Under the pieces are notes generated by a model. It made no database searches. It had not been told where the DNA came from and worked only from the letters and a program-made list of their open reading frames with translations. A DNA stretch of 64,000 nt from Desulfobacterales bacterium. Its GTDB lineage: Bacteria > Desulfobacterota > Desulfobacteria > Desulfobacterales > 4572-123. Positions 1-54,584 of this stretch are shown here, one piece after another. Made by a program: the position numbers and the translations under genes. The first letter of the stretch is position 1. Each line of letters starts with the position of its first letter. The DNA lies in assembly GCA_029939715.1 (NCBI GenBank), contig JAOZSJ010000003.1, positions 1,880-65,879 on the forward strand. The letters run 5' to 3'.

Positions 1-1080
1 AATATCATCAGCCCCGCTGCCGCCAAGGATAATGTCATCACCGGCATTGCCGTATATCACATCATCTCCGGTCGCAATTGCAAAAGCTCTGATAATGTCA
101 ACAGCACCGCTGCCGTCTATCGCAACCTGGCCGTTATCACCCACCAGGATGTCATTGCCGGAATCTCCGGTTATTTCATCACCTCCGGCCCCGCCGAAGA
201 TAATGTCATCATCCTCGTTACCGGCCAGGGTATCATTGCCGCCGGCCGGTGAATCAATATTCAGAGTCCTTACTGTCCGGTCGCCCCATTTATCGATAAC
301 GGCGATCCCAACGTCGCCGATTATCGTATCTTTGCCGCTGTTACCGGTTATGCAGTCATCCCCGCTGCCGCCGAAAATAATATCGTTGCCGGCATCTCCG
401 GTTATGCTATCGTTGCCGTCGTCAAGCCGGCCAAGGGCTTTAGCAACAAAGCCGTCATCCTCGCTGAAAAGAACAGTTCCGTCATCTCCAAAAAGGAGAT
501 CCATACCATCACCGCCCCGGATCAAATCGTCTCCGGCCTGCCCGTAAACTATGTCATCCCCGCTCCCGGCCCGGATCACATCATAAGTTCCGATTGCATC
601 GTCGGTGACGGAGACTTGAGTTGCATATCCACCTTCCAGGCGATCGGCATCCGGTTCAATGATTCCACCATCTCCCAAAATCACATCATCTCCCTCACCA
701 CCTGTCAGGGTATCGGCTCCGGTGTCGCCGATAATGACGTCATCCCCTTCATGTCCTGCGATCTCGTCCTCATCATCGCCGCCAAAAAGAAAATCGTTGC
801 CCATGCCGCCGGAAATAAAATCCCCTCTGCCGTTTTCAGAACCGGCGGATGCAGCGCTGACAAGGTTTTCAACAGATTTTTCAACAATCCTGTCACCGTC
901 AAAGATGGTTATGAAATCATCTCCGAATACAACCTCCCCGGCATCACCGAAAAGCATCATGTTCTCTGTCCAGTTTTCACTTTCAACGGTGCCGATCAGG
1001 TCATTCCCGTCTCCGCCGAAGACAACGGCAAGCCCGTTTTCATTTTCGCCGTCATCTTCAAGAATACAGGTGTCATCCCC
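1..1080 (-). repeat. RTX-type Ca-binding nonapeptide repeats running off the window edge
   Basis: Hand translation of 1-69 gives GDDVIYGNAGDDIILGGSGADDI. Hand translation of 661-831 gives GRGDFISGGMGNDFLFGGDDEDEIAGHEGDDVIIGDTGADTLTGGEGDDVILGDGGI. Confidence 0.85.
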
Positions 1081-25000: not shown

Positions 25001-28000
25001 TTGGCGGTGTTGGCATCCTTCAGATAATATCGGTATGTCGTGCCGGAGATAAGCTGCGGTCTGCCGACAATGTCAGGGATACCGCCGGTGCCCTGAATCA
25101 GTTTCACATCGCCTGTGCCAGTACCTGCCAGGCTGATTTCATCACCGTCAATACTATTTGTATTAAGAGGACTGTCGCTGCGGCTTGTAAAGGTAACGTC
25201 GATATAGCGCTTTGCGTTCAGGGACTCGGCAGACAGCACCGCACCGTTGGCGGGATTGGTAAGGGTGGCACCTGGTGCGGGCGGCAAAAGCTCTCCCGAG
25301 GCATTCCTGTTCACAAGGCTGAAACGCTCTGTCTCCGCAAAATTGGCATTACCATCGGCATCATACCAGGATCCGGCAATAAAACCGAGCTCAACATCAC
25401 CCGACCGGGCAAAGCTGCCTGTAATGGTGTAACGATACGTATTGGGAAATCCGTCTGCAACCTTTTCCGGGCGGCCGTTCACCGTAATGCCGGATATGGG
25501 CTGATTGTTCATGAGCAGCATAAATTCCGGGGAGTTATCCAGGATGCTGTTATCATTCAGGCCGACATTATTCGGGTCACTGAAGGTTACCTCGATATAT
25601 TTTTTATCCGCCGTCAGTCCGTTTATTTCGGCCCGGTCATATGCCATATATCCCATATTGCCGATCTCAAAGGAATCCTTGCCGAAACTTGCAGCGGACA
25701 TGTCCGCTGTTGGAAACAGGACAGGGATATCGGACAGCGGCGAATCAAAACCCACCTGATCAAATATCTGGAAATTATTTATATTGAAACTCTGCATCCT
25801 GAATCCGTCGGTACCGCCGATACTGAATGAAGCGCTGCCTCCGATCTCAAAATACTCCTGGCCCCCGACCGTAATCCTGACATAGGCACCGGCAATGGCA
25901 ACATCGATGGCACCCGTGGGTTTTTTGGAAAAACTGACAGTTCCCCCGATTTTCAGGATATCCAGTATGGATATATCCATACTTCCGGTAAAGGATGTCA
26001 CCATTACAGGTGTTGCAAAATCTATAACAACTGATTTTTCAGTATTTGGAATGTTTATTTCCCGATAGACCACCTGGCCGGAAGTATTGATGTCAATTAC
26101 AGCACTGCCGCTGATATCAAGACCTGCAAGACCTGCAAACGCGATATCTCCACTGGCATGCAGGGCGTATTTTCCGCCATCGAATTTCACCATTCCGATC
26201 TGCGCATTGGTAAGCAGAACACCGATGGCATCGGGGTTTACCTCTCCGTCATCGTTGCGGTACGGCCCCTGGCCCATGAAGACATCGATGCCTTCACCGC
26301 CAAAGGCGTCGCCGCTGAATACGACACTCCCCTCGATGGAGATAAAATTTGCGATATTCAGTTTTGCTTCAGAGGCAAAGAAGATAAACCCTGTTTCCTC
26401 GGCGCTGAAGCGGATCAGGATGGTACTGCCGTTGACCTCGATTTTCTCATCGACACCGCCGCCGGTGGTGTTGATCATAAGGCCCAGGGTTGCCTCGACC
26501 TGCACGGGCCCGCCGCCGCCCAGGGAGCCGACACCCGAAATAATACCGGCAACCCCTGAACCGGTAATCACAAGAGCGCCCTGACCATTTGTAATACTGC
26601 CGCCAAGACTCTCATCACCAAACTCAATACCCGTTACGGCCATCCGGGTAATCTTTTCGCCGGTTTCTGCCCGCGTGGCCTGATCAAAATAAAGGTTGCC
26701 TTCAAGGGTATAACCGCCGATTGTAATTCCGGCGTCAAGAGCGACGATGCGGACAAATACGCCAGCCGGGAGCACCATGTGTTCGGTGGTTGTACCAACG
26801 GTAAAATACTCATCCACTGCTGCCGGCAGCGTGTTTATTTCAAAGGTGATGGTTTCACATGAGAGGGTAAAAACAGATCCGATATTCAGATCATCGGGAT
26901 CAATGGTCAGTTTTCCGGCAATTCCCTGGGCGGTTATCAGCATGACACCGCTTGGGATACCGAGGCTTAAAATCGTGGAAGATCCGCTCTTGAGTTCAAG
27001 CTCAACTTCTGAAACAGCCAGTTTAACAACCCGGCTGCCGCTTTCGGTGCTCGTCTGTTCAAAGCTGAAGTTGCCTGAAAGTGTCTGTCCGAGGATGGAA
27101 AGAGATACATCAACACCCTCCACCCGCAGAAACGGTCCGGCATCCAGACTCAAGGCGACTGTTTCGCCGCCCGTGACAAATATTTCGTCAACAGCGCTGC
27201 CGGTATTGTTTATGGTAAGGGCGAAACTGCCTGCAAATTCAATACCGGGAATGTTTTCCACACGGATATCGGCGCCTATCTCACCGGCCAGTCCCTCGCT
27301 TGTAATCAGCAGTGATCCCCGGCCGTTTTCAACAACTACAAAATCGGTGGTGCCGTTACCAAGCCCCACTGATACATTTGAAGCTCCGATGCGGACAACA
27401 CTGCTCGTCACACCGCCGCTGATGGAACTTACCTTTTCAAAAGAAAAATTACCGCCAAGGGTCTGTCCGAGAATAGTAAGTTCAATGCCGGTTCCTTCAA
27501 CCCTGACAGAGGATTCCGCACCTACATCAACCGTGATCTCTTCGTCCCCGATGGTAAATGTCTGGTTTATGGGTCCGCTGGTTTCAACAATAGATACTGT
27601 AAATGTTCCATCAAATGTAATTCCGGGCACATTTAATCCGACAGCGGCGCTGATCCGGCCGGCCATGCCGCTGTCTGTAATAACCAGGTACCCGGATCCG
27701 TCATGCACGCTGACCACATCGCTTGATCCGTCTCCAAGGCGCAATGCGATATTGTCGGCCGCCACAATGACAATCCGGCTGCCTTCAACGGTTTTTTGTT
27801 CAAAGGCAAAATCACCGGAAATCGACTGCCCGGCAACAGAGAGGATGACATCACTGCCTTCAACGCGGAAATAGGGTCCCTGCGGGAGCAGGAGAGAGAC
27901 GGTGCTGCCGCCAATGACAAAAGTTTCCTCAACCGGGGCCATGGTATTATTTACGGCGATCTCAAATCTCCCTGCAAATCCGACACCGGGAATATTCCTG

Positions 28001-31000
28001 ATTGCCACCGCGGCGCTGAAGCGGCCTGCAAGACCGGCATCGGTGATTATCAGGAGGCCTTCACCTCCGGAAACGCTGACAAATTCCGTGGTGCCGTCGC
28101 CAAGACTTAACCCGGCGCCGGATACAGCCACGCGAATCACACTCGATCCTGCAGCGGTTGTTGCTTTCTCAAAGGCAAAATTGCCGGTCAGTGTCTGGCC
28201 TAGGATTTCAAGATCGAGATTTTCGATCTCCACTTTAAGGTACGGACCTGCCGGCAGTTCCAGGAGGCGTGTATCGTTTCCAACCGTAAACTCACTGGAA
28301 ACCGCCTGGCCCGTATTGTTTACCGATACCGTGACGCTGTCCACAGTTGTCGTCGTAATTCCGGGAATTGTCAGTGTTACACCTGCACTGATTTTTCCCG
28401 CCAGCCCGTCGCCGGTAATAATAAAATAGGCCTCACCGTTTTCAATTGTGACATAATCGGTGGTACCTGAGCCGATATGCAGTTCCACCCGGGTTGCACC
28501 CATCCGTACAATTCGCTGATTGTCGGCAGTTGTGGCCTGCTCGAAACTGAAATTTCCGCTTAACTTCTGGCCGAGTACTTCCAGCGAAGCAGTGGTGCCG
28601 TCCTCGATCCCCGTAATATCCACCTTCAGGTAGGGACCCGCCTGCAGATCAAGGGTTATCTCTTCATCACCGACTTCAAAGGTTTCAAGGACCGCCTGGC
28701 CGGTATTGTTGACAGCTATGCCAAATGCACCCTCCAGGGAAATTCCGGGAATATTGACGGAAACATCAGCACCCAGATAGCCGGCAAGGCCCGCGCTTGT
28801 GATGAGGAAACTGCCCTGTCCGTTGGTGACCGATACAAAATCCGTATGACCGTTGCCAAGGCCGAGGTGGACATTTACAGCAGCAATCCTGACGGCATTT
28901 TCGTCATCGGGCGTACCGATCAGGCCGTCGATGCCTGCGCTTGTAACGCGCTCAAATGCAAAATCACCGCCCAGCGTCTGCCCCAGGATATTCAAATTGA
29001 CGCCGACCCCTTCAACTCTCAGGTAGGGACCGGCCGGGAGATCAAGTGTGATGGTCGTTCCATCAAGAATTATCGTATCGTTTACAGCCGACGGGATATT
29101 ATTAACCGAGAGTTCAAATGATCCGTTAAAAACAACCCCCGGCACGTTAAGACCGACACTTGCCCCGATTTTACCCGCAATGCCCGCACCGGTTATAAGC
29201 AGGGACCCGCTGCCCCGGGAAATGGAAACCGCATCACCGATGGCAAGACTGACATCAGAGGCTCCGAGTCGTATCACGCGCTGTCCGAATGAATTTATGA
29301 CCTGCTCAAAAACAAAATTACCGGAAAGATCATTATCAAGGATTGAAAGTGTGGCATCGGTGACTTCCAGCCTGAGATAGGGTCCTGCCGGAAGGTCCAG
29401 GTTGAATGAATCAAAACTTTCAGATACGGGCGCCGCGGTATTATTCATGGCAAGCCTTATCGTACCTGAGATGGACACGGCATCCAGGTCCAGGGTCATG
29501 GATGCATTCAGCATACCCGAAACACCGGCAGTGGTGATCAAAAGTGCTCCGGAATCAATTTCAATTGAAAGGATATCACCCGCATCGTCGCCAAAGCCAA
29601 GCGCCGCATTTACAATGGCAATTTTTACAATCCGCTCGCCGTCGGGTTTTGTAAGCTGCTCAAAGACAATCTGCTCCGCGGTCAGTGAAATCCCGAGAAT
29701 TGTCAGGCTTGCAGGAGTTGTCCCCTCCGACGCATCACCGATGCTCCCTCCAGAGACGGGATTCAATGCATAAAGTCTGTTTAATGCACCCGTGTTTACA
29801 ACAACCAGTTCAGGGCCGGTGGCGGCAGTGTTCACATCTCCGGCAAGGATTGAAACGGTGGCATCCGCATCTGCTGTAATATCGGAAGCAGACCATGCAC
29901 CGGCGTTATGGGTATAAAGCCTGTTAATTTCATTATAATTACCCGCGGCAATATCAAGGTCGTTGTCTCCGTCGGCATCAAAAAAGGCAATGGCCCGGGT
30001 ATCGCCGTCATCTAACGTTATATCGGCACCGGCATCAAATCCGGCCCAGATGTTGCCGGCGGTTCCCGAATTCAGGTAAAGCCGGTTTACGCCGGTATTG
30101 CCGGCAGCCAGATCAAGGTCTCCGTCATTATCAATATCGCCAAGGGCAATGGCATGGGTTTCACGCGCGTCCGTGGTTAAATCCGTGCCCGGGCCAAATC
30201 CCAGCCAGTCCCCGCTGTCCCCGTCAAAGGCCAGCCATGCACCGGAATTTTCATCATAGCCCGGATTCAGGTAAAACCGGTTTACACCGTTATTACCGCT
30301 TACAATGTCGGAAGCACCGTCACCGTCAATATCGCCGCAGACAATGGAAGTCGTCGAATTTTCGGCATCGGAAACTGCAAGGCCCTCTTCAAACCCGATC
30401 CACTCACCTGTCGCATTGTCAACTCCCCGGTTAAAATAAATCCGGTTTACCCCGCCATGACTGGCTGCGATCAGATCGACATACCCGTCTTTGTTAAAAT
30501 CCTCAAGGGCAAGATCCCTTGTGTCGTCGGCATAGGTACCGATAATGCGGCCCACGGCCATATCCCAGGGGTTATCGTCTCCGTCATTTAAATAGGTAGT
30601 GTTGGCCTGATTAGAATTTCCCGCAACGAGATCAAGGTCCCCGTCATTATCAAGATCGCCAAGGGCAAGGCAGGAAGTTGCATCAGTCTCAAAACCCACG
30701 TTAAGGCCGAAAACCATATCCCATGGATCTCCATCTCCGTCATTGAGATAGAGGCGATTCATGGCAAGGGCGCTTCCGACAACAAGATCAAGGTCGCCGT
30801 CGCCGTCTACATCGCCAAGAACCGAACAGGTATCATCGGCAGTATCGTTATCAATACCGGCCACTTCCACACGCACATAGGGTCCGGAAGGCAGGATGAG
30901 GGTCATGGACCTGCCGCCTGCTTCAAAGGACTCTTCAATCTGCCGGTCGGTACTGTTAATGGCAAGTTCGATGCCGCCGTTAAAGGAGACCCCAGGAACA

Positions 31001-34000
31001 CTGATGTCGACATCACCGCTCAACCTTCCCGCAAGCCCGGCGGCGTTGATCACCAGCAGTCCATGGCCGTTTGAAATGCTGACAAAATCGGTTGTGCCGT
31101 CCCCTAAGCCAACATTTACCTGATTTGCTGCAATTTTAACGATATCCGTATCATCATCATCCCCTGTAATCCCGTTGGGTCCGGCAGACCTGATCTGTTC
31201 AAAGGCAAAATCGCCGCTGATTCTCTGGCCGAGCAACCGCAGATTTACGTCGGTGCCCTCGAATCGCACATAGAATCCGGCAGGCAGGTTAAGATTGATG
31301 CTCTCCGTACCGACTTTGAACTGCTCATTTACCACACTTGTCGTCGTATTGATGGCAAATCCGAAGGTTCCGGAAAATTCAAATCCAAGTGATGGATTAA
31401 AGATGACTGTCCCGCCAAGGCGCCCTGCCAGACCGCCGCCCGTAAAGACAAACATCCCCTCTCCGTCAGTGAGTGTAACAATCGGGGTTTCTCCGGCCAT
31501 CATTTCAAGAGAGACATCAGTTGCGGCCAGAGTTAAAATCATGGGAGGTGTGAAATCCGGATTTTCTGCTGACTGCGGACTGTAATTACCTGTAATTCTT
31601 TCAATAAAAAAGTTTCCGGAAAGTTTCTGTCCGGCGATTTCCAGTAAGGCATAAGGATCGGTTCCGCTGCCGGTTATGGAGAGCCTGAAATACGGTCCGG
31701 CCGGAAGATCCAGGATAATGGTTTCATCGTCTGTGTCTATGGCGGGGTCGTGTCCCAGAATAAACGTTTCGTTTATCTGATTATTTGTATTGTTGATGGC
31801 AATGCCGATGGCCCCGCTGAAAGAGACAGGGCCTACTTCAAGGGATTGAATATCAACAGATACCTCTCCGGCAAGTCCGTCTCCTGAAATCAGCAGTGCA
31901 CCGCTTATGTCTTCAATTGTGACAAGATTAGAGTTCCCGTCGTTTAACGACAGGGATGCGCCGGCCACTGCAATCTTGATATCACCGGCTTCATTTTTAC
32001 CCGGTGTGGCCGGATCATCCGCACCCTTTTCAAATAAAAAGGTTCCGGAAAGAACCTGACCGAGGATATCCAGATCAATGGTGGCCTCAAAGCGTCTTGC
32101 GCCGTAATTTATCGTATGATCGACACTGCCGCCGTTGCCGTCGGGTACGGAAACAATCGTCTCACCGCCGATGTCACTGTATTGTACAACCGCACTGCCG
32201 GAAAAGGATACGCCCGGAATACCGAGAATCATGACCTCCCCTTCGGCATACAGGGCATAGGTGTATGGGCCTGATCCGGACCGGATCAGACCGATGTTGG
32301 CGTTGTCCAGGAGTACGCCCCTTGCATCGGGATTGATACTGCCGTCTTCAAGCTTTACCGGTCCCTGGCCCATGAAAACGGAGATTCCGCTGCCGGAAAA
32401 AGAGCCTCCGGTAATATTGATTTCATCGCCTTCAATGATGACGAAATCACCGATGTTGATGGAGGCTCCGGAAATGATAAAGTTAAAAAAGGTGGAAGGA
32501 TCAGCGATCTCACCGTCACCAAATTCTATTGTAAGGCTCTGACCGTTAAGCTGAATCTCCTCATAAACCGTATGCGATGTAGAATTCAGGCGCAGTTTCA
32601 CGCCGGCACCTGCATCACAGCCGCCGATGCCAAGCGATAGCTGTCCGGAAACAAACCCGGCAATACCGTCGGAATAAATGACAAAAGCGCCCTGGCCCTG
32701 ACTTATTTCAAAATTATCTCCATCAGAATAATCAAAAGAGACATCCGACATGGCAAAGCGGGTTATTTTTACATTATCAGCATTTGTGGTCTGGTCAAAA
32801 AAGAAATTGCCGCTGAAGGAGACACCGCCCACGGACAATGTCAATTCCACCACCGATACCCTGACAAAGGAACCGCCCGCCAGATCGTTTTCATCTATAT
32901 CGCCGTCATCATCCAGGTCAAAGGGAAGCGGTCTTGTGTTGATTTCAACCCTGGTTGTGCCGCCGCTCACGGTTACTCCGGGAATATTCAATATATCAAG
33001 TGTAACATCAAAACTTGCCGCAATCCCGAGGCTGTCAATAACAAAAACAGCGGAACTGCTGGTTACAAGGACAAAAGGATCTGAATCAGAACCTAATTTG
33101 AGTTCAAAATCGGTCACCCGGAGAGTGAGCCTGGTGCCTTGAGGCGTATCTTCTATTTCAATGGCAAGGCTTTCACAAACGATTGACTGCCCGGCAATAT
33201 CAATATCAATATTCGTACCTTCGATGAAAAAACCATCTTCGATCAAAATTTCATCAATAGTTTTTTCACTGCCCGTGGTGTTTATTTTCACCTGGAAACT
33301 GCCGTCAAAATCGACCCCCGGAACATTGACGCCCACGCTTCCGGAAAGATAACCGTACAGGCCCTTTTCAACGACCACACCGTTTTCAAATATCTTTATG
33401 ATTTCAAAAGCACCCTGGCCGTTTGTGACCTGTATTATACTGTTATCCCCTTCACCAACCTTGAGTTCGACATCGGCAAAAGAGACCCTCACTGCCGTGG
33501 AAAGACCGGATGAAGTGCTCTGCTCAAAAACAAAACCGCCGGTGAGCAGAACCCCGCCCACTGAAAGCACAATACTGTCGCCTGCAACCCTCACATATGG
33601 ACCGGCCGGCAGGTCCAGCGTTTCTTCAACGTCGCCTGTAATAAAAGTTTCATTAACAATATGCCCGGTGGTGTTTATTTCCACGTCAAGGATTCCGCTG
33701 ACAACGATACCAGGGATATTTAAAGATGCACTGCAGCCGAGGCTGCCTGCAATTCCAGTGCTGTCTATCACGAAATTGCCATGGCCGCTGCCCACCGTTA
33801 AAATGCCGCTGCCAATGTTCATGGCAACCTGGCCTGCGGAAATTTTGACAACCTTTTCACCGCTGTCCCGGGTGGACTGCTCAAATGCAAAATTTCCACT
33901 CAGAGTTTGACCGAAAACGGAAAGGAGCACACTGTCACCGGCGATCAAAAGGTAAGGCCCGGCATCGAGTTCAAGTGTCAAAGTGCCGGATCCTGCCTGT

Positions 34001-37000
34001 ATGATTTCCGATACCGCGGCATCGGTTGTATTGATCTTGAGTGTGAAATCACCGCTGAAGGATACATCATCTCCTGCCTCTACACTGACACCGGCAGAAA
34101 GAGTTCCGGCCGCACCGGCTCCGGTAAAAACAAAGAAGCCTTGCCCATCAGTCACGGAAACGATGCCGTCGGCAAGGGAGATCTCCACATCCGATGCGGC
34201 AACGCGCACTACTGCCTGCCCGTCTGCACCGGTAACCTGTTCGATGACAAAATTGCCTTCAAGGGTCTGACCCAGGAGTGAAAGGGATGCCCGAGTGGTG
34301 TCATCCACCCCGGTTACTGCAACTTTGAAATAAGGACCTGCCAGAAGAGCTGCAGGTTCGGCATCAGGTAAAAGCTGGATATCCCCGGCAGCAGCGGTGG
34401 TGTTCACAAGCACAGTAAAACGGCCGGATAAGGATATCCCGGATAAATTTACGGCAAGGTCCGTGGAGAGCCCGCCCATGAGCCCGGCACTGGATATTTC
34501 AAAAAACCCGTATCCATTTGAAAGGCTGATGACGGGCGTAGTGCCCCCAAGGGAGATGGCAACGTTTTCCGCACGGGCACGCACAAGTGTATCGGCGTTT
34601 TCCGTGACCTGTTCAAAGACAAAATCACCTGTCAATGTCTGGCCGGATATGGACAGGCTGACATCTGTCCCGGCAAGGCGCACATAGGGTCCGGCGGGAA
34701 GTTCAAGGGCCACGGGTATGGAACCGGCCATGATGGTTTCATGGACATCTACACCGGTTGTGTTGATCTGCAGGTTAAGGGTTCCGGAAACTGCAACATC
34801 CGGGATATGAACGGCAACACTGCCTGAAAGCTCTCCTGCCAGGCCCGCGTCTGTTATAAACAGGGCACCGGTTCCATGAGTAACTGTGACCAGATCATCT
34901 GAGCCGTTTTTCAGGGAGAGCGTCACGTTGGCAGCGGCAATCTTTACAATTTTTACAGGCTCGGGATCCGATGTAACCGTCTGTTCAAATGAAAAATCTC
35001 CGGAAAGACTCTGGCCAAATACCTCAAGCTGCAGGCCGGTCCCCTCAAATCTCAGGTAGGGTCCAGAGGGCAGGATTAATTCAAGAACATTTGAATCTAC
35101 AAGGAACTGCTCATGAACGGCAAAGGTGGAAGTATTTACGGCGAGACTGAGATTACCGGCAAAGTTGATGCCCCCCGGGATTTCCATGGTGACCGTGCCT
35201 TCGAGTCTGCCGGCAAGGCCTGAATCGCTGATGACAAACATACCCTGTGCCTCTGTGAGGCTGAGGATATCATTTGATCCTGCTGTCAGGGAAAAGCTCA
35301 CATTGTCCGCCGCCAGTTTCACGATGGATCCGCCGGCGGGCGATGTCAACTGCTCAAAGGCAAAATCACCGCTGAGCGTCTGCCCCATAAGTTCAAGGCT
35401 GACATCCTGACCTGCAATCCTCATAAACGGCCCGGCACGAATATCCATGACAAGCTGTTCTTCTCCGAATACAAATATCTGGTTCACCGCTGCATGGGTC
35501 GTATTGATTTCAAGGGCAAATGTACCCGCAAAATCCACACCGGGAATATTCTCGGTAATGGCTGCCGATACGCTGCCGGCAATGCCGCTTCCCGTAAAAA
35601 TAAAGGACCCGCTGCCCTGGGTGATACTGACAAGATCGGTTGATCCGTCACCCATGGACATACTGACATCATTTGCAGCCACGCGAAGTGTGCCGGCCAT
35701 ATCGCCACTTGTTATTTTATCAAAGGAAAAGTCACCGGCAAGACTCTGACCGAAAAGGCAAAGTTCGGTATCGGCTACCTGCAGGCTAAGCACCTGGTCG
35801 CCGGAATCAAAGGTAACCGGGACGCCCTCGTCATTTGAACCCGGAATGGAAAGTGTTTCATTTATTGCCGTGCCGGTTGTATTGACCCTGACAGAGGCTG
35901 TTCCGCTGATGGTGATACCGTCAATACCGATAAGCGCAACGCTGCCCGTGGCATATAATGCAAAGGTATCTCCCTGGGCCTGTGTAATTTTTATCAACCC
36001 TATTTTTGCATCGGAAAGAAGAACGCCCGAGGCAAGGGGATTAATATCTCCGTTATCCAGTTTTGCAGGCCCGCTGCCCATGAATATCATCAGTTCATCA
36101 CCGGCAAAAACAAGCCTGTTGCCGTTTTCCACAAAACTGATATTGCCCTCGATTGAAATAAAATCGGCAATATTCAAGGAAAGGTCTGAAATGGAAAAGG
36201 AAAAAATGTCGCCTTCGGATTCTCCAAAACGGATCACAATGGATCGGCCGTTAATATCTATGGTTTCATCAACGGCCCCGCCGGTTTTATTGACACGCAG
36301 GATAATATTTCCACTGGCATCGGCTACGCCTGCATCAAGGGATGCCGAGCCGGAAACGACACCTGCGACACCTGCCGAAGATACGACAAATCCGCCTTCA
36401 CCGTCGGTGAGACTCTGGTCTCCGATGGCCACTGTTACATCCGATACGGCCATCCGGGTAATTTTATCATCATTTTCATCCAGGCGCTGATCAAAATAGA
36501 AATTCCCTGAAATTGCAGGAGAACCGGCCCCGATGGTTATTTGCGCGCCGATGATGGCCACCCTGACAAATGATCCCGCGGCAAGATTCAGTGTGATGGT
36601 TTCACTGCCGATTTGAAATGTCTCGTTGACAGGGGCCGGGGTTGTATTGATTTCAAAGGAGACCGTTCCGCCGCTGATTGATACGCCCGGCACATTAAAT
36701 ACGGGATCTATTGAAAATCCGGCGGCCACTCCGGAACTGCTGATGATCATCGCACCGCTGCCGCCGGTTATGGCGACAAACGGACTGGCAGGATCGCCGA
36801 GAGTTAAATTAAGCGCCGATGCCCCCAGTCTGACAACGCGCTCTCCTCCTGCAGTGGTGATGGATTCAAAGGTAAAATTGCCGCCAAGGCTCTGACCGGC
36901 GATCTCCAGTGATACGCCAACGCCTTCTATCCTGACAAATTTATCCGCCGAAACCGTATCGATCTCAAGGGCAAAGGTACCGGAAAAACTCAAATCCGGG

Positions 37001-40000: not shown

Positions 40001-43000
40001 TCAAATGCATATCCGCCTGGAGCGATAAGCACCATGAGCTCGGCACCGGAAACACGGACGCCGATTTCCTCACTGTCACTGCCCACAAAAAGATCCACCC
40101 CTGCAGCGGCAATCAGTATCTGTGTCGGGCCATCAGGTGATGTTGTCTTTTCAACGGCAAAACTGCCGGAAAGGTTCCCAAGGGGGGTTTCAAGGGTTAT
40201 ATCATCCGCCCCCAGCCGGCTCATGCCCGCGGCAACATCAAGGATGACCGGTGTAGTGCCGACGGTGATGGATCGATTCACATCCGTAGTCATGGTATTC
40301 TGACTGGCACTGAGAACGCCGCTGAAAACCAGTTCAGGGACACCTGCAATTTCGGCGCTGCCGCCGGCATTAAATGCGTAGGTGCCGTCGGGTTTGATCA
40401 AAAGGGCAAATTGAGCCCCACTGACCCTGACGCCGAGGTCGTCGCCTTTATCCACGGTCTCATTATCATCACCTGCAAAAAACTCGATGCCGGTGCCACC
40501 GGCAATAATTTCATTGGTTACGCTGTTCTTTTCAAAATAAAGTGATCCGGTCAGGTCTGCCACGGGGGTGGACAGGGTAATTAAATCGCCCGAAAAACAG
40601 AGGAGATCGGTATCATCAGGCCCGAAATCAAGAACATGGTCCGTTCCATTGATATTGATCACCTGATGGACTTCATTGCCTGTGGTATTGGCACGCATGG
40701 ACAGGGAGCCGCCAAGGGAGAGGATGCCTTCAAGCCCGGTAAGCGCCACATCCCCGGATGCATCCGCCGCAAATGTAGAGTTGTCGTAAATCACCATCAG
40801 TAAAGAGGCGTCGCTTAATGAAATTCCCACCGAACCGGGTACACCGAGAAAAGTGTCCACATTAATGGCGCCGATCTTGATAACAGGGTCTGAAGGGCCG
40901 GTGGCATCGGATTTTTCAAAGAAAAAATCCCCCTGGATGGATACAAAATCCTCTATTTCTAGGTCTGCAAAACCGGACATGCGAATAAAACTGCCGGCTG
41001 CGTCAAATGTCAACGGTATGCCCGAGACTGTTTCATTGACACTGATACCGGTGTTGAACTCCAGATCAAGGCCGGCACTCATGACCAGATCGTCAATGCC
41101 CGAAAGGTCCGCAACCCCGGCTGCCCTTCCGGCCATGCCGTCCCGGGTCAGGATAAAGGCGCCAAACCCGCCTGCAAGATCCAGGTGTACATTTTCACTC
41201 CCGATGGAAAAAGTCACATCAGAGGCAGTAAAAATCATCGCTGTGCCTGATTGTTTAAAGACAAAGCTGCCCGTGAAAGTCTGGTCAAAAATAGTCAGAT
41301 CGACCCCGGCAGCTTCCACGCGGATAAAAGGACCGGCGGAAACATCAACCACGAGCACCTCTGCCCCGGAATTTTGAATCGTTTCGTAGACAGCAATATG
41401 GGTGGTGTTTACTGCAAGCGTTATATCTGCCGCCATGTTGACCGCACCGGGAATATCGATGGTTGTATGAGCGGACACCTTTCCCGCAAGGCCCGTGGAA
41501 GTCAGTAAAAATACACCATTTATACCGGTGATTTCAGCAAGGGGGTCGGGGTCGTCTCCGTCGGTGAAAAGAATATTTCCGGAGGTAACAGCCACGGTGA
41601 CCGTCTGGGTGTCGTCATCGGTGCCGGCCTGCCGGTCCGGACCGTCTGCTCTCTTTTTCTGAAAAATAAAAGCGCCGTCGGTAATCTCCTGATCGGCAAT
41701 CCCGAGGGTCAATCCAGTGCCGGAAACCGTTATATCGCTCCCGGAAATATCCAGGCTGATATCAGCGGTGAGGATTATGCCGGTATCCGGATTTACATGG
41801 ACGTGAGCCGAGGCCGAACCGGTAAGGCCCGAATCACTGTTCAGGGTAAAACCGCCATGGACCTGAGTCACCGAGACCAGTTCGGTTGTACCGTCACCCA
41901 GCAAGAAGGCCACGTTATCAAAGGCCACATCTATCATTGCCTGGGTTCCTGAACTCACGTCAAAATCAAAATCACCTTCAAGGGTCTGGCCGGCCACATG
42001 AAGTTCCACCCCCGTGCCTGAAATACTGAAAAAGTTGGTTTCTTCATCTGAAAATTTTATCGATACCGTGTCGGTCCCCATCAGGAAAGTCTGATCCACA
42101 GCGCCATCGGTGGTATTCATGTCGAGGCGGAAGGCTCCCGAAAAATCAACATCAGGAACGTTGAAGGCAACCGAGGCGCCAAGGGTTCCGGCAAGCCCGG
42201 TACTGCTTATAACAAAAAATCCTTGACCGTCCGAGAGGGTTAAATACTCACTGTCTGCCGATCCAAAGCCGATCCTGACATTGGATGCGGCAGCGACTAC
42301 GGTCTCTCCTGCCTTTTCAACGGCAAAATCACCGGTCAGGGTCTGCCCGTAAACCGTAAGTTCCACATCCCTGCCGTCAATACGGAAATAGCTTCCCCCG
42401 GGCAGATCAAAATCAAAGTTAATGGTTTCACCGTTGACTTCAATGGCCCCTGTCTTTGCTACCGGAACAGGCATGGTGTTGACTGAAACGGCCAGGCCCG
42501 CTCCGAAAGCGACATCAGCAGAAGCGTTGATTTCAATTCCGGCCTGCATGGTTCCCGCCAGCCCCTGGCTGTTAATTACAAAACAGCCGAACTGGCCTTC
42601 TCCCTGGGCAATGCTGACCGCATCTCCAAGATTAAGTTCCACACCGGAAAAACAGACCGTGAGCAATTTTTCACCATCTTCTGCCGTCACCTGATCCAGA
42701 GAAAAAAAGCCGCTGAGGATCTGGCCGAGAACAATCAATTCAAGGTCGCCGGAAAAACTCATATCGCCGTCACTTACCGTGACGGGATCACCGCCTGTCG
42801 TAAAGGTATAATCAAAACCGATATTATTGAATCGAACCGATGCCGAGCCTGAAAGCTGCGCATCGGACACCCCGAGCAGTTCCACATCACCTTCGGCATA
42901 AAGGGCGTATGAAGAACCGCTTTGAAAAATTTCCACAGATCCGTTGTCCATCAAAAAACCGCTGGCCGCAGCACTGGTTTCCCACAGTTCGGGATCATCA

Positions 43001-46000
43001 CCTGTTTTGACCTTGGCAGGTCCTTTGCCCATGAAGATGCTCAGCCCGGTGCCGGAAAAAACTCCGTTGCCGCCAAAGGAGATCTCATCTCCCTCTATGG
43101 TGACAAAACCGCCTATATTAAGGACAAGATCCGCACCGAAAAACATGAAATAAGGGCCGGTATCGCCGGCAGTTTCGGCAGCACTGAAACTGATGACAAT
43201 TTCACGGCCGTCCAGAATAATGGTTTCATCAACGGATAAACCGGTGGTATTGATCTTGAGTCCGATGCTGCCACCCATATCAAACCCGCCATCAGCGCTG
43301 ACACTGACCTCACCTGAAACCGTACCGGCAATTCCGCCGATATCACTGCCGCTACCGGCAACTATGACAAAAGCACCCTCTCCGTTTATAATTCCGTTGC
43401 CGTCGTAGGTCAGCGAAATACCGGTCATGGCAATTCTGGTCACGCTTGAACCGTCGGGCCGCTCACTTTGATCAAAACTGAAACTGCCTGTAAGTTCAGT
43501 GCCGTTGATGCCGAGGATCGCGTCGGTAACCACGATCCTTACAAACGGACCTGCGCCAAGGGATAGATCTATGGTTTCACCGGCGACCTCAAGGGATTCA
43601 TAAACCGGGACATCCGTGGTGTTCAACTCAATCGACACCCCGGCATCGGCAAGTGATATTCCCGGGACATCAAAATAAGCCGTTGCTGCAAAACTGCCGG
43701 CCAGACCGATGCTGTTGAAAACAAAAACGCCCTGACCACCGGTAACTCCCACATAGTCATTTTCGGTACTGCCAAGAGTCAGGGCAACATCGGATAGGCC
43801 TATAAGGACAATGGCTGAATTGTCGGCGGCGGAAAACTGCTCGATGCTGAAATTTCCGGAAAGAGACTGCCCTGCCGCGGACAGGCTCACATTACTGCCG
43901 CTTACCCGGACATATTTATCCGTGGGCGAGGTGGTATCGATGGCAACGGAAAATACACCTGAAAAAACAACTCCGGGAACCTGGGCTGTAACCAAAGCCT
44001 GGTCAAGAAATCCTGTAATACCGGAACTTTTAATCTCAAGACCGGCGAAATCCGCTGCCACATGGACAAAATCGGAAGTACCGTCCCCAAGAGAGAGCGT
44101 CACCGAATCAGCGGAAAGCGCAACCGTCGATTCACCGCTGTTATCGTCAAATCCGTATTCAAATTCAAAAATTGCGGCATTGAGCCGGATACCGAGGATA
44201 TGAATATGACCGCCGGCAAGTGCCGTCCGCACAAAAAAACCGCCCGGTTCCGCGGCTTCCACCGTCTCACCTGCCAGGGTATGGGCGGTTTCGGTGGTGT
44301 TGAAAAGCAGGGAGACCGTGCCCTCAAGGGTAATGTCACCGCCGAAATCAGGCCCCTGTACAGCGGCATTTACAGCCGCTCCGGCAATACCGTCCGGCGT
44401 AAAGATAAATGCAAATTCCGCATCTTCAATACTGATTACACGGGTCAGTCCTGCCTGCAGTATAAAGTCCAGGTTTTCACCGGAGATGGAAACATCTGCA
44501 CCGCTCTTTTCAAGGGTAAACCGGTCGGCACTCAGCCTGTTTTCAAACACGGTCAGGCTTCCGGAAGCTATTTCCACCCGGACATAGCCGGTGGCAGCGG
44601 CATCTACTGTAATGGTCTGATCATCTATGACCAATGTCCGGGTCTGCCCGGTTGTGTTGACCAGGAGCGAAACGACACCGTCAAGTGAAATATTTTCCAG
44701 ATCCGGTCCTGATACGACGGCATTGATCACACCGCCGGCAATGCCGGTGTCGGTAAATATGAATCCAAAATCAGCATCGTTGATCTCGACAATCCGGGTT
44801 ATGCCGGCCTGCAGTAAAAAGTCCAGATTTTCACCGGAGATTGATACCTCGGCCCCGCTTTTTCGCAGCACAAGGCTATCGGCTGTCAGGCGGTTGCCAA
44901 GAATTTCAAGGGCTGCGGGCTCGTTATCCGACAGGGCCGTTATGCCTAAATAAAAATAGGGACTGTTCGTCCCGGCCGCGGCAACGGTCAACGATTTTCC
45001 GTTTAATTCGAAGGTCTGCACTGTTGTGGTCGTATTAAAGGAGAGCGACAGTTCTCCGGCAAGAGAAATACCCGAAAGTGCAGGACCATTAAAATCGGTT
45101 ATCACAACCCCGCCGGCGATACCGTCATGGGAAAAAATGAATCCGAAGTCGGCCTGCAGGACTTCAACAATCGTCGTTCCACCGGCGGCAAGGTTGAAAC
45201 TGAAGCCCTGACCGGTGACCGTCACTTCAGCGCCGCTTTTTTCAAGAACCAGACTCTGGGCCGTAATTGTGTTGTCCAGTATATCCAGTGTTGCCGGAGC
45301 ACCTGTTTCGGTATCTTCACTGATTTCCACCCTGAAATAAGGGCTGCCCGTCTCGGCCCCTTCAACGGTGATAGTTTCAGTAGTGATATTTTCAAATGAC
45401 TGGATTGTTGCCGTTGTATTGACAAACAGCGACACCGAACCTTCAAGGGTGATAAAATCAAGATCCGGACCGGTCACATCCGCATTAACCAGCACACCGG
45501 CAATACCATCGGAGGTAAAGCGGAATCCGAAAGCAGCATCATTTATCTCAATAATCCGGGTGGTGCCTGCCTGCAGGAGAAAATCAAGGCCCTGCCCCGA
45601 AACATCGATCACCGAACCGCTCTTTTCAAACACCAGGTGATCGGCTGTCAACGTGTTGCCCATAATGCCCAGCTCCGCATCAAAAATCACAGCCTTGACA
45701 TAGAAGCTGTCCGCACCGGCACCACTTACTGAAACAACCTGGCCGCCTGCCATGATCTCCCTGGTGGCCTGTGTTGTATTCACAAACAGATCGGCCCTGC
45801 CGCCAAGGGTAATTTCCCCGGCAAAATCAGGCCCAAACATCCGGGCATCGACAACGGCGCCGACTATCCCTTCCGAATTAAGCTCAAATGCAAAATCCGC
45901 ATTAGTTACAGAGAGTATCCGTCTGTTTTCAACCCCGAGCCGGAATGCAAAACTTAAATTGTTTCCTGAAATGCCGACAACGGCTGTATCGCTGCTGTTT

Positions 46001-49000
46001 TCTTCAATCACCAGCTCATCGATGGAAAAGTCAAAGCTGTCCATCACAGTCAGTGTTATACCGGTACCGACAATTCTGACAAACGGTCCGGCTTCAAGAC
46101 CCAGGGAAAGCAGGGTATCATCAATTGTTGTTTCCAGGTTTACAGCCAGGCCGGTGCTGTTTAAAGACAGCCTGAAAGTCCCTGCCAGGGCAGCTTCCGG
46201 ACCGGCTATGGAAACCCTGGCCCCGCACTCGCCGGCAATACCTTGGGAATCAAGGATAAAAAAACCGCTGGCCTGATCGACAACGACAAGATTTGATCCG
46301 AGGTTAACTTCAACATCATTGAAAACGGCGGTCACAACCGCGTGATTTTCAGATGTAGTCTTCTGCTCTATGAAAAAACTGCCGCTCAGGGTCTGATCGC
46401 CCACGGCAAGTGTTGCCGGGCCGGTTACTTCAATCCTGAAATAGGGGCCTGCGGGAACACTAAGATCAATGGTTTGCCCGTTGACCTCAAAGTTTTTTAC
46501 AACAGCCTCACCGGTGCTGTTGACAGCCAGGGCCACATCACCCTGGAAAGAAAGGGAACCGATTGCCAGCCCGGCGCCAAGATCCAGCTTACCGGCAATG
46601 CCGGATTCCGTTATCAAAAGTGCACCGCTGATATCACTCAATGCTGCAAGGTCACCTGATTCATCACCTATATTCATAAAGGCGGCACTCACCCCGATCT
46701 CTATGGCGCCGTCTCCTCCAGCGGATCTTTCAAAGGAGAACGTGCCTTCCAGCACCTGATCAAGAATGGTAAGAGCAATGCCCCCTTCAAAACTCAAGGC
46801 TCCTGCGATGACTGAAATCGTACGGTCATCGGCCAGAACAACCGACTCGTCACTGCCTGTGTTGTTCACCCGTATAACCGCAGTTCCTGAAAAGGATACG
46901 CCCGGAATTCCCAGCAGCACCACCTGACCTTCGGCATAAAAAACATACTCACCGGCAGCCGGAGTATAAAGTCCGAATGAGGCATCCTGGAGAAGAATAC
47001 CGCTGGCACCGGGATTTATGGAGCCGTCATCAAGGACGCCCGGGCCTTCTCCAAGAAATATACTGGCATCTGCTGCAGAAAGCCGGCCGTCACCTCCGAT
47101 GCTGAAACTGCCCTCGATGACGACAAAATCGGCGATATTGATTCTGCCGCTGCCGAAGAACTCAAAAAGATCGGTTTCCGAAGAATCAAAGAAAATGGTA
47201 TAGATAACGCCGTTAACGTTGATGGTTTCATCAACCGATCCGCCGGTTTTGTTGATTCTCAGCCCCAGAGCCGCATCGACGCCGGCCTGGCCCCCTTCGA
47301 CATGCAGATCGCCGGACATGACGCCTGCAATTCCCCTTGCGGTAATAACGATTGCCCCTGCGCCGTTTTCAAGGGTCTGGTCGCCGATGGTAACTTCCAC
47401 CTCAGTGAGTATGATCCGGGTAATGACGGCACCGTCTGTTTCCCGCTGATCAAAATAAAAATTCCCCTGCAGCAGGCTTTCGCTGTTTCCGGCAATAGTT
47501 GCCGCTGCATTCAAGACAGCCACTCTTACATAGGGTCCTGCAGGGAGTTCAACAAGGTCAGGCGTTTCACCCATGGAAACACTTTCCGACCGCGTATTGA
47601 TCTCAATTAAAACATCTGTTGTATCCAGCTCGAACTGGTCAATCTCAAGGGCAATTGTACCACCCAGCACACCGGAAATGCCGGCATCACTGATATTCAA
47701 AATACCGGTTGTGACCGCAGCTTCAACAAAATCGGTGTTCCCGTCACCAAGGGTAAGGTCGGCATTTGAAACCCCCAGTGTAATCTGATCACCGCTCTTT
47801 TCAAACAGGAAAATACCGCCAAGGCTCTGGCCGGCCGCGGTAATGGAGCCTGCCAATTCGACCTTAAGATACTCGCTGCCCGCTTCAGTCGTATCAAGTT
47901 CCAGCTTAAAGCTGCCGGCAAGTGCAATACCTTCGATCCGAGAGGTAAAATTTTCAAGCAGATCCAGATCAATGGCGGCGATGATCCCGTTTTCGGTTAT
48001 CTGCATGAAACCGCTGCCTGCAAGACTGGCCAGGCTTTTTTCACCGGCGGCAAGTTCAAGTTCATCGATTCGGGTGGTTACGGCAATATCAATGCCGTTT
48101 TTCTCAAAAATAAAAAGACCGGCTATGGACTGATCAAGGAGCGTCAGCGCCCCGTCTAATTCAACCCGCAAATAAGAATCACCGGTTTCATTGACAGCCA
48201 GGATTTCCGGAAGCGCCTCTCCGCCGATGGCGGTAATTGTTTCACCTGTGGTATTGAGCTTAAGTGTAAAACCGCCGTCCATTGCCAGATGATCAAACCC
48301 GGTTGTAGAACCCGCGGCGACGGACAGTTCGATAAACGCACCAATACCGCTGGTGTTTATCAGCATTGAACCTGCACCGGTCAATTCAATCAGGCTTTTG
48401 TCGCCTGCCTTCAGCTCAAGGCTGTCGATATCTGCACCAGCCCTGATAGAGGCGCCGTCTTTTTCGAAAACAAATTTTCCGGCAAACAGTTGATTAAACG
48501 CTGTCAGGGTCCCATCCATCTCAATGAGAAAATATGCATCCCCGGCGTCATTTACCGCAAGCTCTTCCACAAGAGGCGTTCCACCTATGTGGGTGACCGT
48601 TTCACCGGTGGTATTAATTTTAAGATGAAAAGTTCCGTCCAGTGAAACCAGATCGATGGTTGAATCCGCAGTCAATGTCAAATCAAAAACGGCGGCAATG
48701 CCCTTTTCACTGATCTGGATAAAACTGTCTGTGATGGAAAACAGAGCAAGACTTTTAGCCTCATCTCCGGCACCTGTTTTTAAATCCAGGATAGCGGATG
48801 TGATATGAACAAAAATATTCCCATTGTCCAAACCAAAAGAAAAATCCCCCGAGATGGTCTGCCCCAGAATTTCCCAGGAACCGGAAATATCGGCAGACAG
48901 TGATTTGCCGGCCAGAAATGAGGCCAGTGCATTTTTCATACCTGGGTCATCCGCGGTACTTACCTGCAGATCATCAGAGGCGTTCACCACTTCGAGTACC

Positions 49001-50781: not shown

Positions 50782-51019
50782 AAGCAAATGACAACTGAGC
50801 AACCTGCCATTTTAGAAAGTGACAAACGGGCAGGCCTGAGTTAGAGTAATATCCGGATAATATAAGCTATTTGGAAACCCGGCTGGCAACATAGTGTTTA
50901 ATAATGCACCATAACGAACGTCTCTGCTGCAACTTTAAATAAAATATTATCTGCTGAATATACATTATTTTATTATTAAATCAACAATAATCAGCAAAAT
51001 TGTTCCGGTAATGATTCAA

Positions 51020-51693: not shown

Positions 51694-51776
51694 GAAAACT
51701 CCCTTGTATTTATTAATGTTATGTACTTTCACCTGTTTTGATATCTTTGACAAATGTGGCGGAACCATCGACATTA

Positions 51777-54580: not shown

Positions 54581-54584
54581 TTAA

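What the first reader, a model, noticed from the sequence alone, without database searches (positions are those of the whole stretch)
26050..48900. A ~23-kb array of roughly 45-50 copies of an unclassified ~120-aa module
The FxFE(Q/K) motif recurs every 350-380 nt, for example at 33521, 33871, 34231, 34611, 34981, 35351 and 35716. Each unit reads approximately L.LPAGPY.R..G..V.L.I.GQ.L.GDF.FEQ....(V)..AA.NV...LGDG..D.V....G.G.F.I...G.AG...G.V...IPGV...G...L.INTT...V.E. The alternation of short hydrophobic and Gly-rich segments suggests an all-beta repeat that could stack into a very long fibre. I cannot assign it to a family I know. Units differ substantially at the nucleotide level, so the array is old and maintained rather than a recent amplification or an assembly artefact.
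Basis: seen in the sequence. Interest (0 to 1): 0.75.

Follow-up and report, generated by a model that had tools for sequence, protein, structure and literature searches.

The report
Sixty-module beta-sheet stalk, giant protein
The repeat array is real: it is 60 diverged copies of an unnamed ~120-residue all-beta module that probably form one continuous beta-sheet ribbon, the stalk of a bacterial surface protein of more than 17,000 residues, and the same module occurs unannotated in giant proteins of many phyla.

Summary
The array lies on the minus strand, inside one open frame of at least 16,927 codons (ATG at 50781, running off the window's left end). It spans 25768-48972 and holds 60 modules, not 45-50. 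Module 50 is split by an inserted seven-bladed FG-GAP propeller.

The modules are old. Mean pairwise identity is 27% and the maximum is 53%. There is no DNA-level tandem repeat. 52 of 60 modules match a module in another organism's protein better than any sister module.

No Pfam-A, NCBIfam, PDB-sequence, PDB-Foldseek or BFVD match exists. An exhaustive profile search nevertheless finds 1,795 cluster representatives, nearly all named "hypothetical".

AlphaFold2 gives pLDDT 96.6 for one module and 86.2 (pTM 0.77) for three. Independent coevolution analysis gives the same topology: six long antiparallel strands per module join one continuous sheet across module borders. A short hairpin from each module folds back onto the previous module. 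One face of the sheet is uniformly hydrophobic.

The most likely role is a rigid extracellular stalk or scaffold of an RTX-type, LEPR-XLL giant adhesin-like protein that displays inserted binding domains. I rate it a new variant of a known kind, of moderate interest.

The parts
1..50781 (-). Giant gene, 5' part only. It starts at ATG 50781 and has at least 16,927 codons with no stop. It runs off the left end of the window.
   Evidence: Stop-free frame 50811 to 1. Other assemblies call the same start, and in them the gene also runs into the contig end (at least 17,004 aa).
50686..50748 (-). N-terminal LEPR-XLL motif (ELENLEPRILLSADP). No Sec-type hydrophobic signal is visible.
   Evidence: NCBIfam NF012209 'LEPR-8K' scores 29.2 bits against a cut-off of 17, E 4.6e-7. 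The sequence is shown.
48985..49485 (-). Conserved pre-array domain (aa 443-609) that also precedes the arrays of homologs.
   Evidence: 41-48% identity to the corresponding N-terminal regions of P0108, P0130, P0091, P0155 and P0113. It has no Pfam hit.
30961..48972 (-). Modules 1-49 of the ~120-aa beta-meander module. Module 1 matches only from HMM position 20, so it lacks the flap hairpin.
   Evidence: HMM hits, alignment and consensus, AF2 models.
30850..30960 (-). N-terminal part of split module 50: NST start, flap hairpin and first half of strand 3.
   Evidence: Sequence reading.
29722..30849 (-). FG-GAP propeller inserted into module 50 at the strand-3 kink, read as seven blades.
   Evidence: Pfam PF13517 E 2.5e-22 (6 stretches) and PF01839 E 1.1e-13. 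Five regex-matched D-x-D-x-DG sites, and blades read from the sequence.
29449..29721 (-). C-terminal part of split module 50. It resumes at HMM position ~35 (ASLTILGISLTAEQIVFEQ...).
25768..29448 (-). Modules 51-60. Modules 52-58 are the best-conserved copies; the last module is weak (E 9e-11).
   Evidence: The three-module AF2 model covers 27589-28713.
22462..25767 (-). Conserved post-array region (aa 8349-9450) that also follows the arrays of homologs.
   Evidence: 38-61% identity, colinear, with the post-array parts of P0015, P0124, P0134, P0093 and P0084.
1..864 (-). RTX nonapeptide (GGxGxD) calcium-binding repeats at the last visible part of the protein. A second small block lies at about 17062-18264.
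   Evidence: Pfam PF00353 E 8.8e-28 / 1.3e-21 with 6 stretches, and E 7.4e-7 for the internal block.

Best explanation
The array encodes the long stalk, or scaffold, of a giant secreted surface protein of a Desulfobacteraceae bacterium.

Each ~120-residue module contributes six long antiparallel strands (11-16 residues) to a single beta-meander sheet. The sheet runs without interruption from module to module: strand 8 of one module pairs with strand 3 of the next. Each module also contributes a short two-stranded hairpin ('flap') that folds back and packs on strands 5-7 of the preceding module. The modules are therefore interlocked into one ribbon rather than strung like beads.

One face of the ribbon is uniformly hydrophobic. 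The other face is polar.

At 4.8 A per strand, 60 modules would give a ribbon of up to roughly 170 nm (inference).

The ribbon holds away from the cell, and displays, an FG-GAP propeller that buds from a split module, together with the large C-terminal region of other repeats and calcium-binding RTX blocks. In this it works like the extender region of RTX adhesins.

Shown here: the repeat, its age, its strand topology and interlock (predicted and coevolution-supported), its amphipathy, the inserted propeller, and the LEPR-XLL and RTX ends.

Inferred: extracellular location, rigidity, length and the adhesive or contact role.
For: Repeat and age: 60 tandem modules; the array is ancient, with positional orthologs in other organisms.

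Structure:
- AF2 on one module gives pLDDT 96.6 and eight strands. AF2 on three modules gives pLDDT 86.2 and pTM 0.77, with 24-25 strands and no helix.
- Mean-field DCA on 1,493 consecutive module pairs from 150 other proteins plus this one (Neff 1,439) recovers antiparallel ladders 1-2, 3-4, 4-5, 5-6, 6-7 and 7-8.
- DCA also recovers an inter-module ladder between strand 8 and strand 3 of the next module, and flap contacts to positions 61/63/65, 87/89 and 98 of the previous module, including an E10'-R63 pair.
- Module 1, which has no predecessor, lacks the flap.
- Hydrophobicity alternates strictly i/i+2 on every strand.

Secretion or surface context:
- The N-terminus carries a LEPR-XLL motif.
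- RTX repeats are present.
- Actinobacterial homologs carry Sec signal peptides ahead of the same module arrays.

Display role:
- The propeller is inserted inside one module.
- Propellers are inserted at turns of modules in many homologs.
- At least 20 of 120 hits carry FG-GAP.
- In RTX adhesins, ligand-binding domains likewise bud from split extender domains (PMC12077191).
- Tandem beta repeats extend the adhesin from the cell (PMC7493085, abstract).
Against: - No experiment exists on any member of the family.
- The tools return no coordinates, so I could not see how the hydrophobic face is buried. If it is exposed, 'inert spacer' is incomplete.
- The C-terminus and the downstream genes are outside the window and outside every public contig found. 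A type I secretion signal and its transporter are therefore unverified.
- No secretion genes lie upstream here or next to three homologs.
- The AF2 alignments consisted only of sister modules from this protein.
- The modules are not Ig-like domains, so the analogy to RTX-adhesin extenders is functional only.
Confidence: 0.55

Rival explanations
1. The hydrophobic face is the working surface for protein-protein or envelope contact. Two copies, or a copy and a partner protein, would pair face to face into a double-layered fibre. [quoted passage not shown]
For: Every strand is amphipathic, with one continuous V/I/L/F face. Kuzyk et al. 2026 (bioRxiv 10.64898/2026.03.19.712371) describe a LEPRxLL giant protein whose 13,000-aa N-terminal part is predicted as an extended beta-sheet. 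That sheet has a continuous hydrophobic cleft, protruding domains that do not disrupt it, and modelled dimerisation through the cleft. Architecturally this is very close to what is seen here. DSSP keeps the strands unbroken through the Gly-rich mid-strand line, which fits a curved open sheet better than a sharply folded one.
Against: Homology to Cag_663 was not tested. Dimerisation in that paper is itself a model. About 28% strongly hydrophobic positions per module is also what an ordinary two-layer beta core needs, so the face may be buried within one chain (inference). No multimer prediction could be run.
Confidence: 0.2
2. The array is a very long hydrophobic groove that carries lipids or other hydrophobic molecules between cells or to a surface. 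It would be an extracellular counterpart of the AsmA/TamB/VPS13 'beta-taco' bridge-like transfer proteins.
For: The structure is a continuous amphipathic antiparallel meander with a Gly/small-residue line at mid-strand on all six long strands. Foldseek's weak best hits are lipid-facing beta walls such as porins and outer-membrane barrels. The source organism comes from hydrocarbon-rich hydrothermal sediment; this rests on sample names and on my own knowledge of the 4572 MAG series.
Against: No AsmA, TamB/DUF490 or Chorein Pfam model matches any module, even at E<=10. TM-scores to all solved structures are at most 0.33. No N-terminal membrane anchor is present. The array is 7,700 aa long, extracellular and decorated with propellers, which is unlike known bridge proteins. 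The shape of the groove could not be inspected.
Confidence: 0.07
3. The modules are independent Ig-like beta-sandwich domains on flexible or calcium-stiffened linkers, as in an ordinary RTX-adhesin extender. The apparent continuity would then be a prediction artefact.
For: The module size (~120 aa), the all-beta content and the conserved LGDGxxD turn resemble BIg extender repeats in a general way. The AF2 alignments were shallow and made of paralogs.
Against: No Big/Ig/cadherin Pfam or NCBIfam model matches. pLDDT stays at about 90 across both junctions, and pTM is 0.77 for three modules. DCA from other proteins gives a strand 8 to strand 3' ladder and flap-to-previous-module contacts, which an autonomous domain would not show.
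Confidence: 0.05
4. The array is an assembly artefact, a recent amplification or a decaying pseudogene.
For: All public contigs break inside the gene.
Against: The frame has 16,937 codons without a stop. No two modules exceed 53% identity. Three independent assemblies carry the same sequence. GenBank fragment OQY08208.1 is 99.8% identical over 2,853 aa. Colinear orthologs exist.
Confidence: 0.01

Closest known systems
Extender region of RTX adhesins (LapA, MpIBP, SiiE, FrhA, AhLap)
   Same: A giant secreted protein with dozens of tandem ~100-120-aa all-beta repeats that make up most of its length. A ligand-binding-type domain buds out of a split repeat. Varied binding and repeat domains and RTX nonapeptide blocks lie towards the C-terminus (PMC12077191, PMC7493085).
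   Different: The repeats here are not Ig-like sandwiches and match no Big model. They are predicted to fuse into one continuous sheet with a swapped hairpin rather than forming discrete domains. The N-terminus is a LEPR-XLL motif, not the known retention module. The type I secretion signal and transporter genes were not seen.
[quoted passage not shown]
   Same: A LEPRxLL N-terminus. Thousands of residues of extended beta-sheet with one hydrophobic surface. Foreign domains protrude at intervals without breaking the sheet. A calcium-binding repeat region lies C-terminal. The authors report no structurally characterised relative.
   Different: The protruding domains there are HK97-like, whereas here the insert is an FG-GAP propeller. 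The C-terminal part there is a parallel beta-helix. Sequence homology of the sheet-forming units was not tested here. Cag_0614 did not appear among the 150 best hits of the profile search, so any relation is distant at best.
AsmA-like / TamB / VPS13 repeating beta-groove ('beta-taco') proteins
   Same: Long antiparallel beta-meander sheets built from repeating strand units, with one hydrophobic and one polar face.
   Different: There is no sequence match and no fold match in the PDB. The unit has 8 strands including a back-folding flap. The protein is extracellular, about five times longer, and lacks a membrane anchor.
Antiparallel beta-helix tubules and Rhs/YD-type spiralling sheets in giant proteins (West-Roberts et al. 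2023)
   Same: Continuous antiparallel sheets that extend over more than 1,000 residues in giant bacterial proteins, recognised only by structure prediction.
   Different: [quoted passage not shown] No helix is predicted here, and no Rhs/YD model matches.

Membership tests
Curated repeat families of giant bacterial surface proteins (Pfam Big_x, Cadherin-like, VCBS, PATR, SprB, DUFs; NCBIfam T1SS-143, tandem-95, Ig-like repeat) | Significant match of the module to the family HMM | tested here: not met
   Pfam-A gave nothing in aa 1-8348 at E<=1 except the FG-GAP insert. Sixty modules scanned singly at E<=10 hit no family more than once. The same holds for NCBIfam.
LEPR-XLL giant proteins (NCBIfam NF012209) | N-terminal LEPRxLL motif above the curated cut-off | tested here: met
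   29.2 bits against a cut-off of 17, E 4.6e-7, at residues 22-42 of the frame. Several homologs with the same module start in the same way.
RTX adhesins | RTX nonapeptide calcium-binding repeats towards the C-terminus | tested here: met
   PF00353 E 8.8e-28 with 6 stretches in the last 300 visible residues, and a second block at about aa 10,890-11,230.
RTX adhesins | [quoted passage not shown] | not testable with these tools
   The gene leaves the window, and all three public contigs end inside it. The upstream 13 kb holds only metabolic and solute-import genes.
RTX adhesins | Extender built of discrete Ig-like beta-sandwich domains with calcium-binding linkers | tested here: not met
   No Ig-family HMM match. 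AF2 and DCA indicate a continuous sheet with inter-module strand pairing.
RTX adhesins | Ligand-binding domains that bud from split extender domains | tested here: met
   The FG-GAP propeller lies between HMM positions ~35 and ~36 of module 50. The criterion is taken from PMC12077191.
AsmA-like / TamB / RBG lipid-transfer proteins | Match to AsmA, DUF490/TamB or Chorein-type models, and an N-terminal membrane anchor | tested here: not met
   No such Pfam hit. No hydrophobic N-terminal segment. No PDB fold match with TM above 0.33.
AsmA-like / TamB / RBG lipid-transfer proteins | Open groove lined by the hydrophobic face | tested here: inconclusive
   Amphipathy is shown. The shape of the groove could not be inspected because no coordinates are returned.
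Cag_663-type hydrophobic-cleft beta-sheet | Sequence or fold homology of the sheet-forming units | not tested
Only the architectural description could be compared.
FG-GAP / VCBS beta-propeller (the insert only) | Repeated FG-GAP units with DxDxDG calcium sites | tested here: met
   PF13517 79.7 bits (cut-off 26.9) and PF01839 51.1 bits (cut-off 22.1). Blades were read from the sequence.

The most novel reading that the evidence does not exclude
The 60 interlocked modules would form a continuous, open hydrophobic groove of about 100-170 nm outside the cell. This would be an extracellular bridge that moves lipids, hydrocarbons or other hydrophobic molecules, or that docks into a partner cell's envelope, between a sulfate-reducing Desulfobacteraceae bacterium and its neighbours. 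It would be a new structural class of intercellular conduit, shared by giant proteins of many phyla.
Probability: 0.07. Interest if true: 0.9.

Novelty: new variant of a known kind. Interest (0 to 1): 0.55.

Why it matters
Giant bacterial surface proteins are mostly annotation deserts. Here, 7,700 residues of one protein, and matching stretches in at least 1,795 protein clusters, turn out to be one module family. The carriers include Verrucomicrobiota, Planctomycetota, Desulfobacterota, Actinomycetota, Acidobacteriota, Bacteroidota and others. The family has no name, no Pfam or NCBIfam model and no solved relative.

Defining the family would annotate a great deal of 'hypothetical' sequence. 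The predicted architecture is a single interlocked amphipathic sheet that hosts inserted propellers. This is a different way of building a long extracellular stalk from the bead-like Ig repeats of known adhesins, and it resembles the hydrophobic-cleft sheet just proposed for a symbiosis protein that is transferred between cells.

Carriers include cultured isolates (Microbacterium, Sinomonas, Pelagicoccus, Limisphaera), so the fold and its function can be tested experimentally.

Tried and rejected
- I aligned overlapping three-module windows (A2). MAFFT slid the shared segments out of register (1,315 columns), so I replaced it with 18 non-overlapping triples (A3).
- The first word-indexed homolog search with the profile returned only 8 fragments. 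The exhaustive search showed that this was a prefilter limit, not rarity.
A single three-module protein worked.
- I looked for coevolution signals between the upper and lower halves of the strands, which would indicate a folded-over sheet. Only weak pairs near the 99th percentile appeared. The two module copies in the matrix are not independent, so I drew no conclusion.
- I considered a closed 8-stranded barrel per module. I rejected it because strand 8 pairs with strand 3 of the next module, not with strand 1 of its own, and because TM-scores to 8-stranded barrels (OmpA, PagP, avidin) are at most 0.3.
- The plus-strand ORFs inside the region, such as 26747-27874, are shadows of the minus-strand gene.
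- Literature searches for LEPR-XLL and for planctomycete giant genes gave no description of this module.


Full report
**What is in the sequence**

The finding sits inside one enormous open frame on the minus strand. The frame runs from 50811 down to position 1 without a stop, 16,937 codons, and leaves the window. The first ATG is at 50781. Independent gene calls on other assemblies use the same start. The ORFs that the mechanical list shows on the plus strand of the region are shadows of this gene.

**Checking the repeat**

I seeded an HMM with six adjacent units and iterated it on the protein. It converges on 61 head-to-tail hits, with per-domain E-values from 1e-10 to 1e-41. The hits cover aa 614-8348, which is window 25768-48972, and have one gap of 313 residues. 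Spacing is 101-148 aa.

The gap is an FG-GAP beta-propeller (PF13517 E 2.5e-22; PF01839 E 1.1e-13). Reading the sequence shows that the propeller is inserted inside a single module. The module begins INSTDRQ...PSGPYVRVEVAGID, leaves for the blades, and resumes ...ASLTILGISLTAEQIVFEQ at the same HMM position, about 35. The array therefore has 60 modules, one of them split.

**Age**

- Mean pairwise identity of modules is 27%. Neighbours average 31.6%. No pair exceeds 53%.
- Tandem Repeats Finder sees no ~360-nt array. Only short motif-coding patches recur.
- For 52 of 60 modules, the most similar module anywhere in my data set lies in another organism's protein. These matches come in colinear runs: modules 14-20 with P0044, 24-29 with P0038, and 58-61 with P0124.

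The order of modules therefore predates the split of these lineages. The array is ancient and conserved, not a recent amplification or an assembly product.

There is also a higher-order pattern. A trio of special modules recurs five to six times along the array: one lacking the first ~22 residues, one 'FYFDQ' type, and one longer 'INKTGG...FSIGGDG' type.

**Is it a known family?**

- Pfam-A finds nothing in the whole array apart from the FG-GAP insert. Scanning each module alone at E<=10 gives no family hit by more than one module.
- NCBIfam gives the same result.
- A profile of the 60 modules finds no PDB sequence.
- The module is nevertheless common. An exhaustive profile search of 1.84 billion cluster representatives returns 1,795 proteins at E<=1e-3 and 549 at E<=1e-30. 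Many have thousands of residues, with up to 49 copies. None of the listed hits carries as many copies as this protein.
- The names sources give are 'hypothetical protein', 'large repetitive protein', 'beta strand repeat-containing protein', or 'VCBS/FG-GAP repeat-containing' because of the insert.
- Carriers include Verrucomicrobiota, Planctomycetota, Desulfobacteraceae, Acidobacteria, Rokuibacteriota, Bacteroidota and many Actinomycetota. Among them are the isolates Microbacterium sp. 2FI and MF43, Sinomonas mesophila, Pelagicoccus, strain DG1235 and Limisphaera.

**Structure**

AlphaFold2 on one module, with the 59 sister modules as alignment, gives pLDDT 96.6 and pTM 0.79. It predicts eight strands: two of 7 residues and six of 9-15 residues.

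Three consecutive modules, with 17 non-overlapping triples as alignment, give pLDDT 86.2 and pTM 0.77. The model has 24-25 strands, no helix, and high confidence across both junctions.

Foldseek finds no hit at E<=1e-3 in the PDB or in BFVD. The weak best hits are walls of porins, large outer-membrane barrels and gasdermin or perforin hairpins, with TM-scores of 0.33 or less. That is only the local likeness of a long-stranded antiparallel meander.

Because those alignments were made of paralogs only, I made an independent test. I extracted 2,103 modules from this protein and 150 other proteins, built 1,493 consecutive module pairs (Neff 1,439), and ran mean-field direct-coupling analysis. The results were as follows.

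- About 85% of the 90 strongest within-module couplings fall on the antiparallel ladders 1-2, 3-4, 4-5, 5-6, 6-7 and 7-8.
- Between modules, strand 8 (positions 113-121) forms an antiparallel ladder with strand 3 of the next module (positions 30-39).
- The short hairpin of the next module (positions 8-23) contacts positions 61/63/65, 87/89 and 98 of the previous one, including an E10'-R63 pair.

The main sheet is therefore 3-4-5-6-7-8-3'-4'..., continuous through the array. Each module also sends a flap back over its predecessor. In keeping with this, the first module, which has no predecessor, matches the HMM only from position 20 and lacks the flap.

Column statistics show strict i/i+2 alternation of V/I/L/F with polar or small residues on every strand. 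A line of Gly or small residues lies at mid-strand. One face of the ribbon is hydrophobic over its whole length.

**The rest of the protein and its origin**

- The N-terminus carries the LEPR-XLL motif (NF012209) and no Sec-type signal.
- A conserved ~170-aa domain precedes the array and a conserved ~1,100-aa region follows it, both here and in homologs.
- Further downstream lie other unannotated repeat families and two RTX blocks.
- Actinobacterial homologs put ordinary signal peptides in front of the same module arrays. Several Gram-negative ones start with LEPR-XLL.
- FG-GAP propellers are frequent guests. In homologs they are inserted mostly in the flap or at the 4-5 turn.
- The neighbouring MttB gene product is found, residue for residue, on three public contigs. 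On all three the giant gene runs into the contig end (at least 17,004 aa).
- GenBank OQY08208.1 from 'Desulfobacteraceae bacterium 4572_123' is 99.8% identical to aa 3532-6384.
- The upstream genes are metabolic. No secretion genes are seen here or next to three homologs.

**Interpretation**

The best-supported reading is a rigid extracellular stalk or scaffold that displays inserted and C-terminal binding domains. Functionally this is like the extender of RTX adhesins, where tandem beta repeats project the adhesin from the cell (PMC7493085) and ligand-binding domains bud from split repeats (PMC12077191). It is not a member of that structural class. The modules are not Ig-like, and they fuse into one sheet.

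[quoted passage not shown] That sheet has protruding domains and a proposed cleft-to-cleft dimer. I could not test homology to it.

The parallel keeps open the rival readings in which the hydrophobic face is the working surface: pairing, docking into a partner envelope, or a lipid groove. I put 0.55 on the stalk or scaffold reading, 0.2 on the functional-cleft pairing or docking reading, 0.07 on a lipid conduit, 0.05 on independent Ig-like beads and 0.01 on an artefact.

**Verdict**

This is a widespread but uncurated module family with a predicted fold that has no solved relative. It sits in a known kind of protein, the giant repeat-rich secreted adhesin-like proteins. I rate it a new variant of a known kind, with interest 0.55.

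Noticed in passing
window 1-50781 (-): The gene is at least 16,927 codons long and incomplete in the window. In three independent public assemblies carrying the same locus it also runs into the contig end (at least 16,864 aa and at least 17,004 aa). Its true length and C-terminus are unknown. GenBank holds a 2,858-aa fragment (OQY08208.1, Desulfobacteraceae bacterium 4572_123), 99.8% identical to this protein over 2,853 aligned residues, named hypothetical.
   Followed up: yes
window 29722-30849 (-): An FG-GAP beta-propeller, read as seven blades, is inserted inside module 50 at the strand-3 kink. In homologs, propellers are inserted at other turn positions of the module (the flap, or the 4-5 turn), so the module array is a recurrent host for propellers.
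   Followed up: yes
window 25768-48972 (-), modules 5-6, 15-17, 27-29, 34-36, 44-46, 59-60: A recurring trio of specialised modules divides the array into segments of roughly 7-14 modules. The trio is a flap-less 'IDT' module, then a 'FYFDQ' module, then a longer 'INKTGG...FSIGGDG' module. These modules are each other's best matches across lags of up to 54 modules. They could be joints or hinges.
   Followed up: partly
window 2821-10152 (-): Eighteen copies of another unannotated repeat (conserved core ~63 aa, consensus ...GDVKAGETWTITLDGTEYSYTV..GDTLEDVAAGLA..I) lie in the C-terminal half, with no Pfam hit.
   Followed up: partly
window 20908-25605 (-) and 11401-16494 (-): There are six copies of a ~95-105-aa module (KKYIDVTF...; possibly Ig-like) just after the array. 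There are also about twelve copies of a Gly/Asp-rich ~90-aa module. Neither has a Pfam hit. A small internal RTX block lies at about 17062-18264.
   Followed up: partly
start of every module, e.g. window 28321-28313 (-): The Asn of the 'NTT' motif is present in 51 of 53 aligned modules. That gives an N-x-T sequon about every 120 residues. It could be purely structural (it couples with positions 27-29) or a site of adhesin-type N-glycosylation.
   Followed up: no
window 51259-63955 (-): The upstream cluster on the same strand holds two MttB-family methyltransferases, a saccharopine-dehydrogenase-like gene, a DAO-family oxidase, a complete solute-binding-protein ABC importer and a BTAD/TPR regulator. 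It looks like a quaternary-amine utilisation locus unrelated to the giant gene.
   Followed up: partly
window 51259-51780 (-): The Oxidored_FMN (old yellow enzyme family) ORF covers only profile positions 2-115 of 342. Other assemblies call a second 72-aa piece after it. It is probably a broken gene remnant directly upstream of the giant gene.
   Followed up: no
window 1-48000 versus 50001-64000: G+C is 0.49-0.535 throughout the giant gene but 0.38-0.48 in the upstream metabolic genes. This may reflect the Gly/Ala/Val-rich coding or a foreign origin.
   Followed up: no
L038 2731-9939 and L040 3561-9458: In two complete homolog loci, a second large protein (2,402 and 1,965 aa) with no Pfam hit lies directly upstream of the giant gene. 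One of these loci is flanked by GGDEF, PAS and two-component genes, which hints at c-di-GMP control as in Lap-type adhesins.
   Followed up: no
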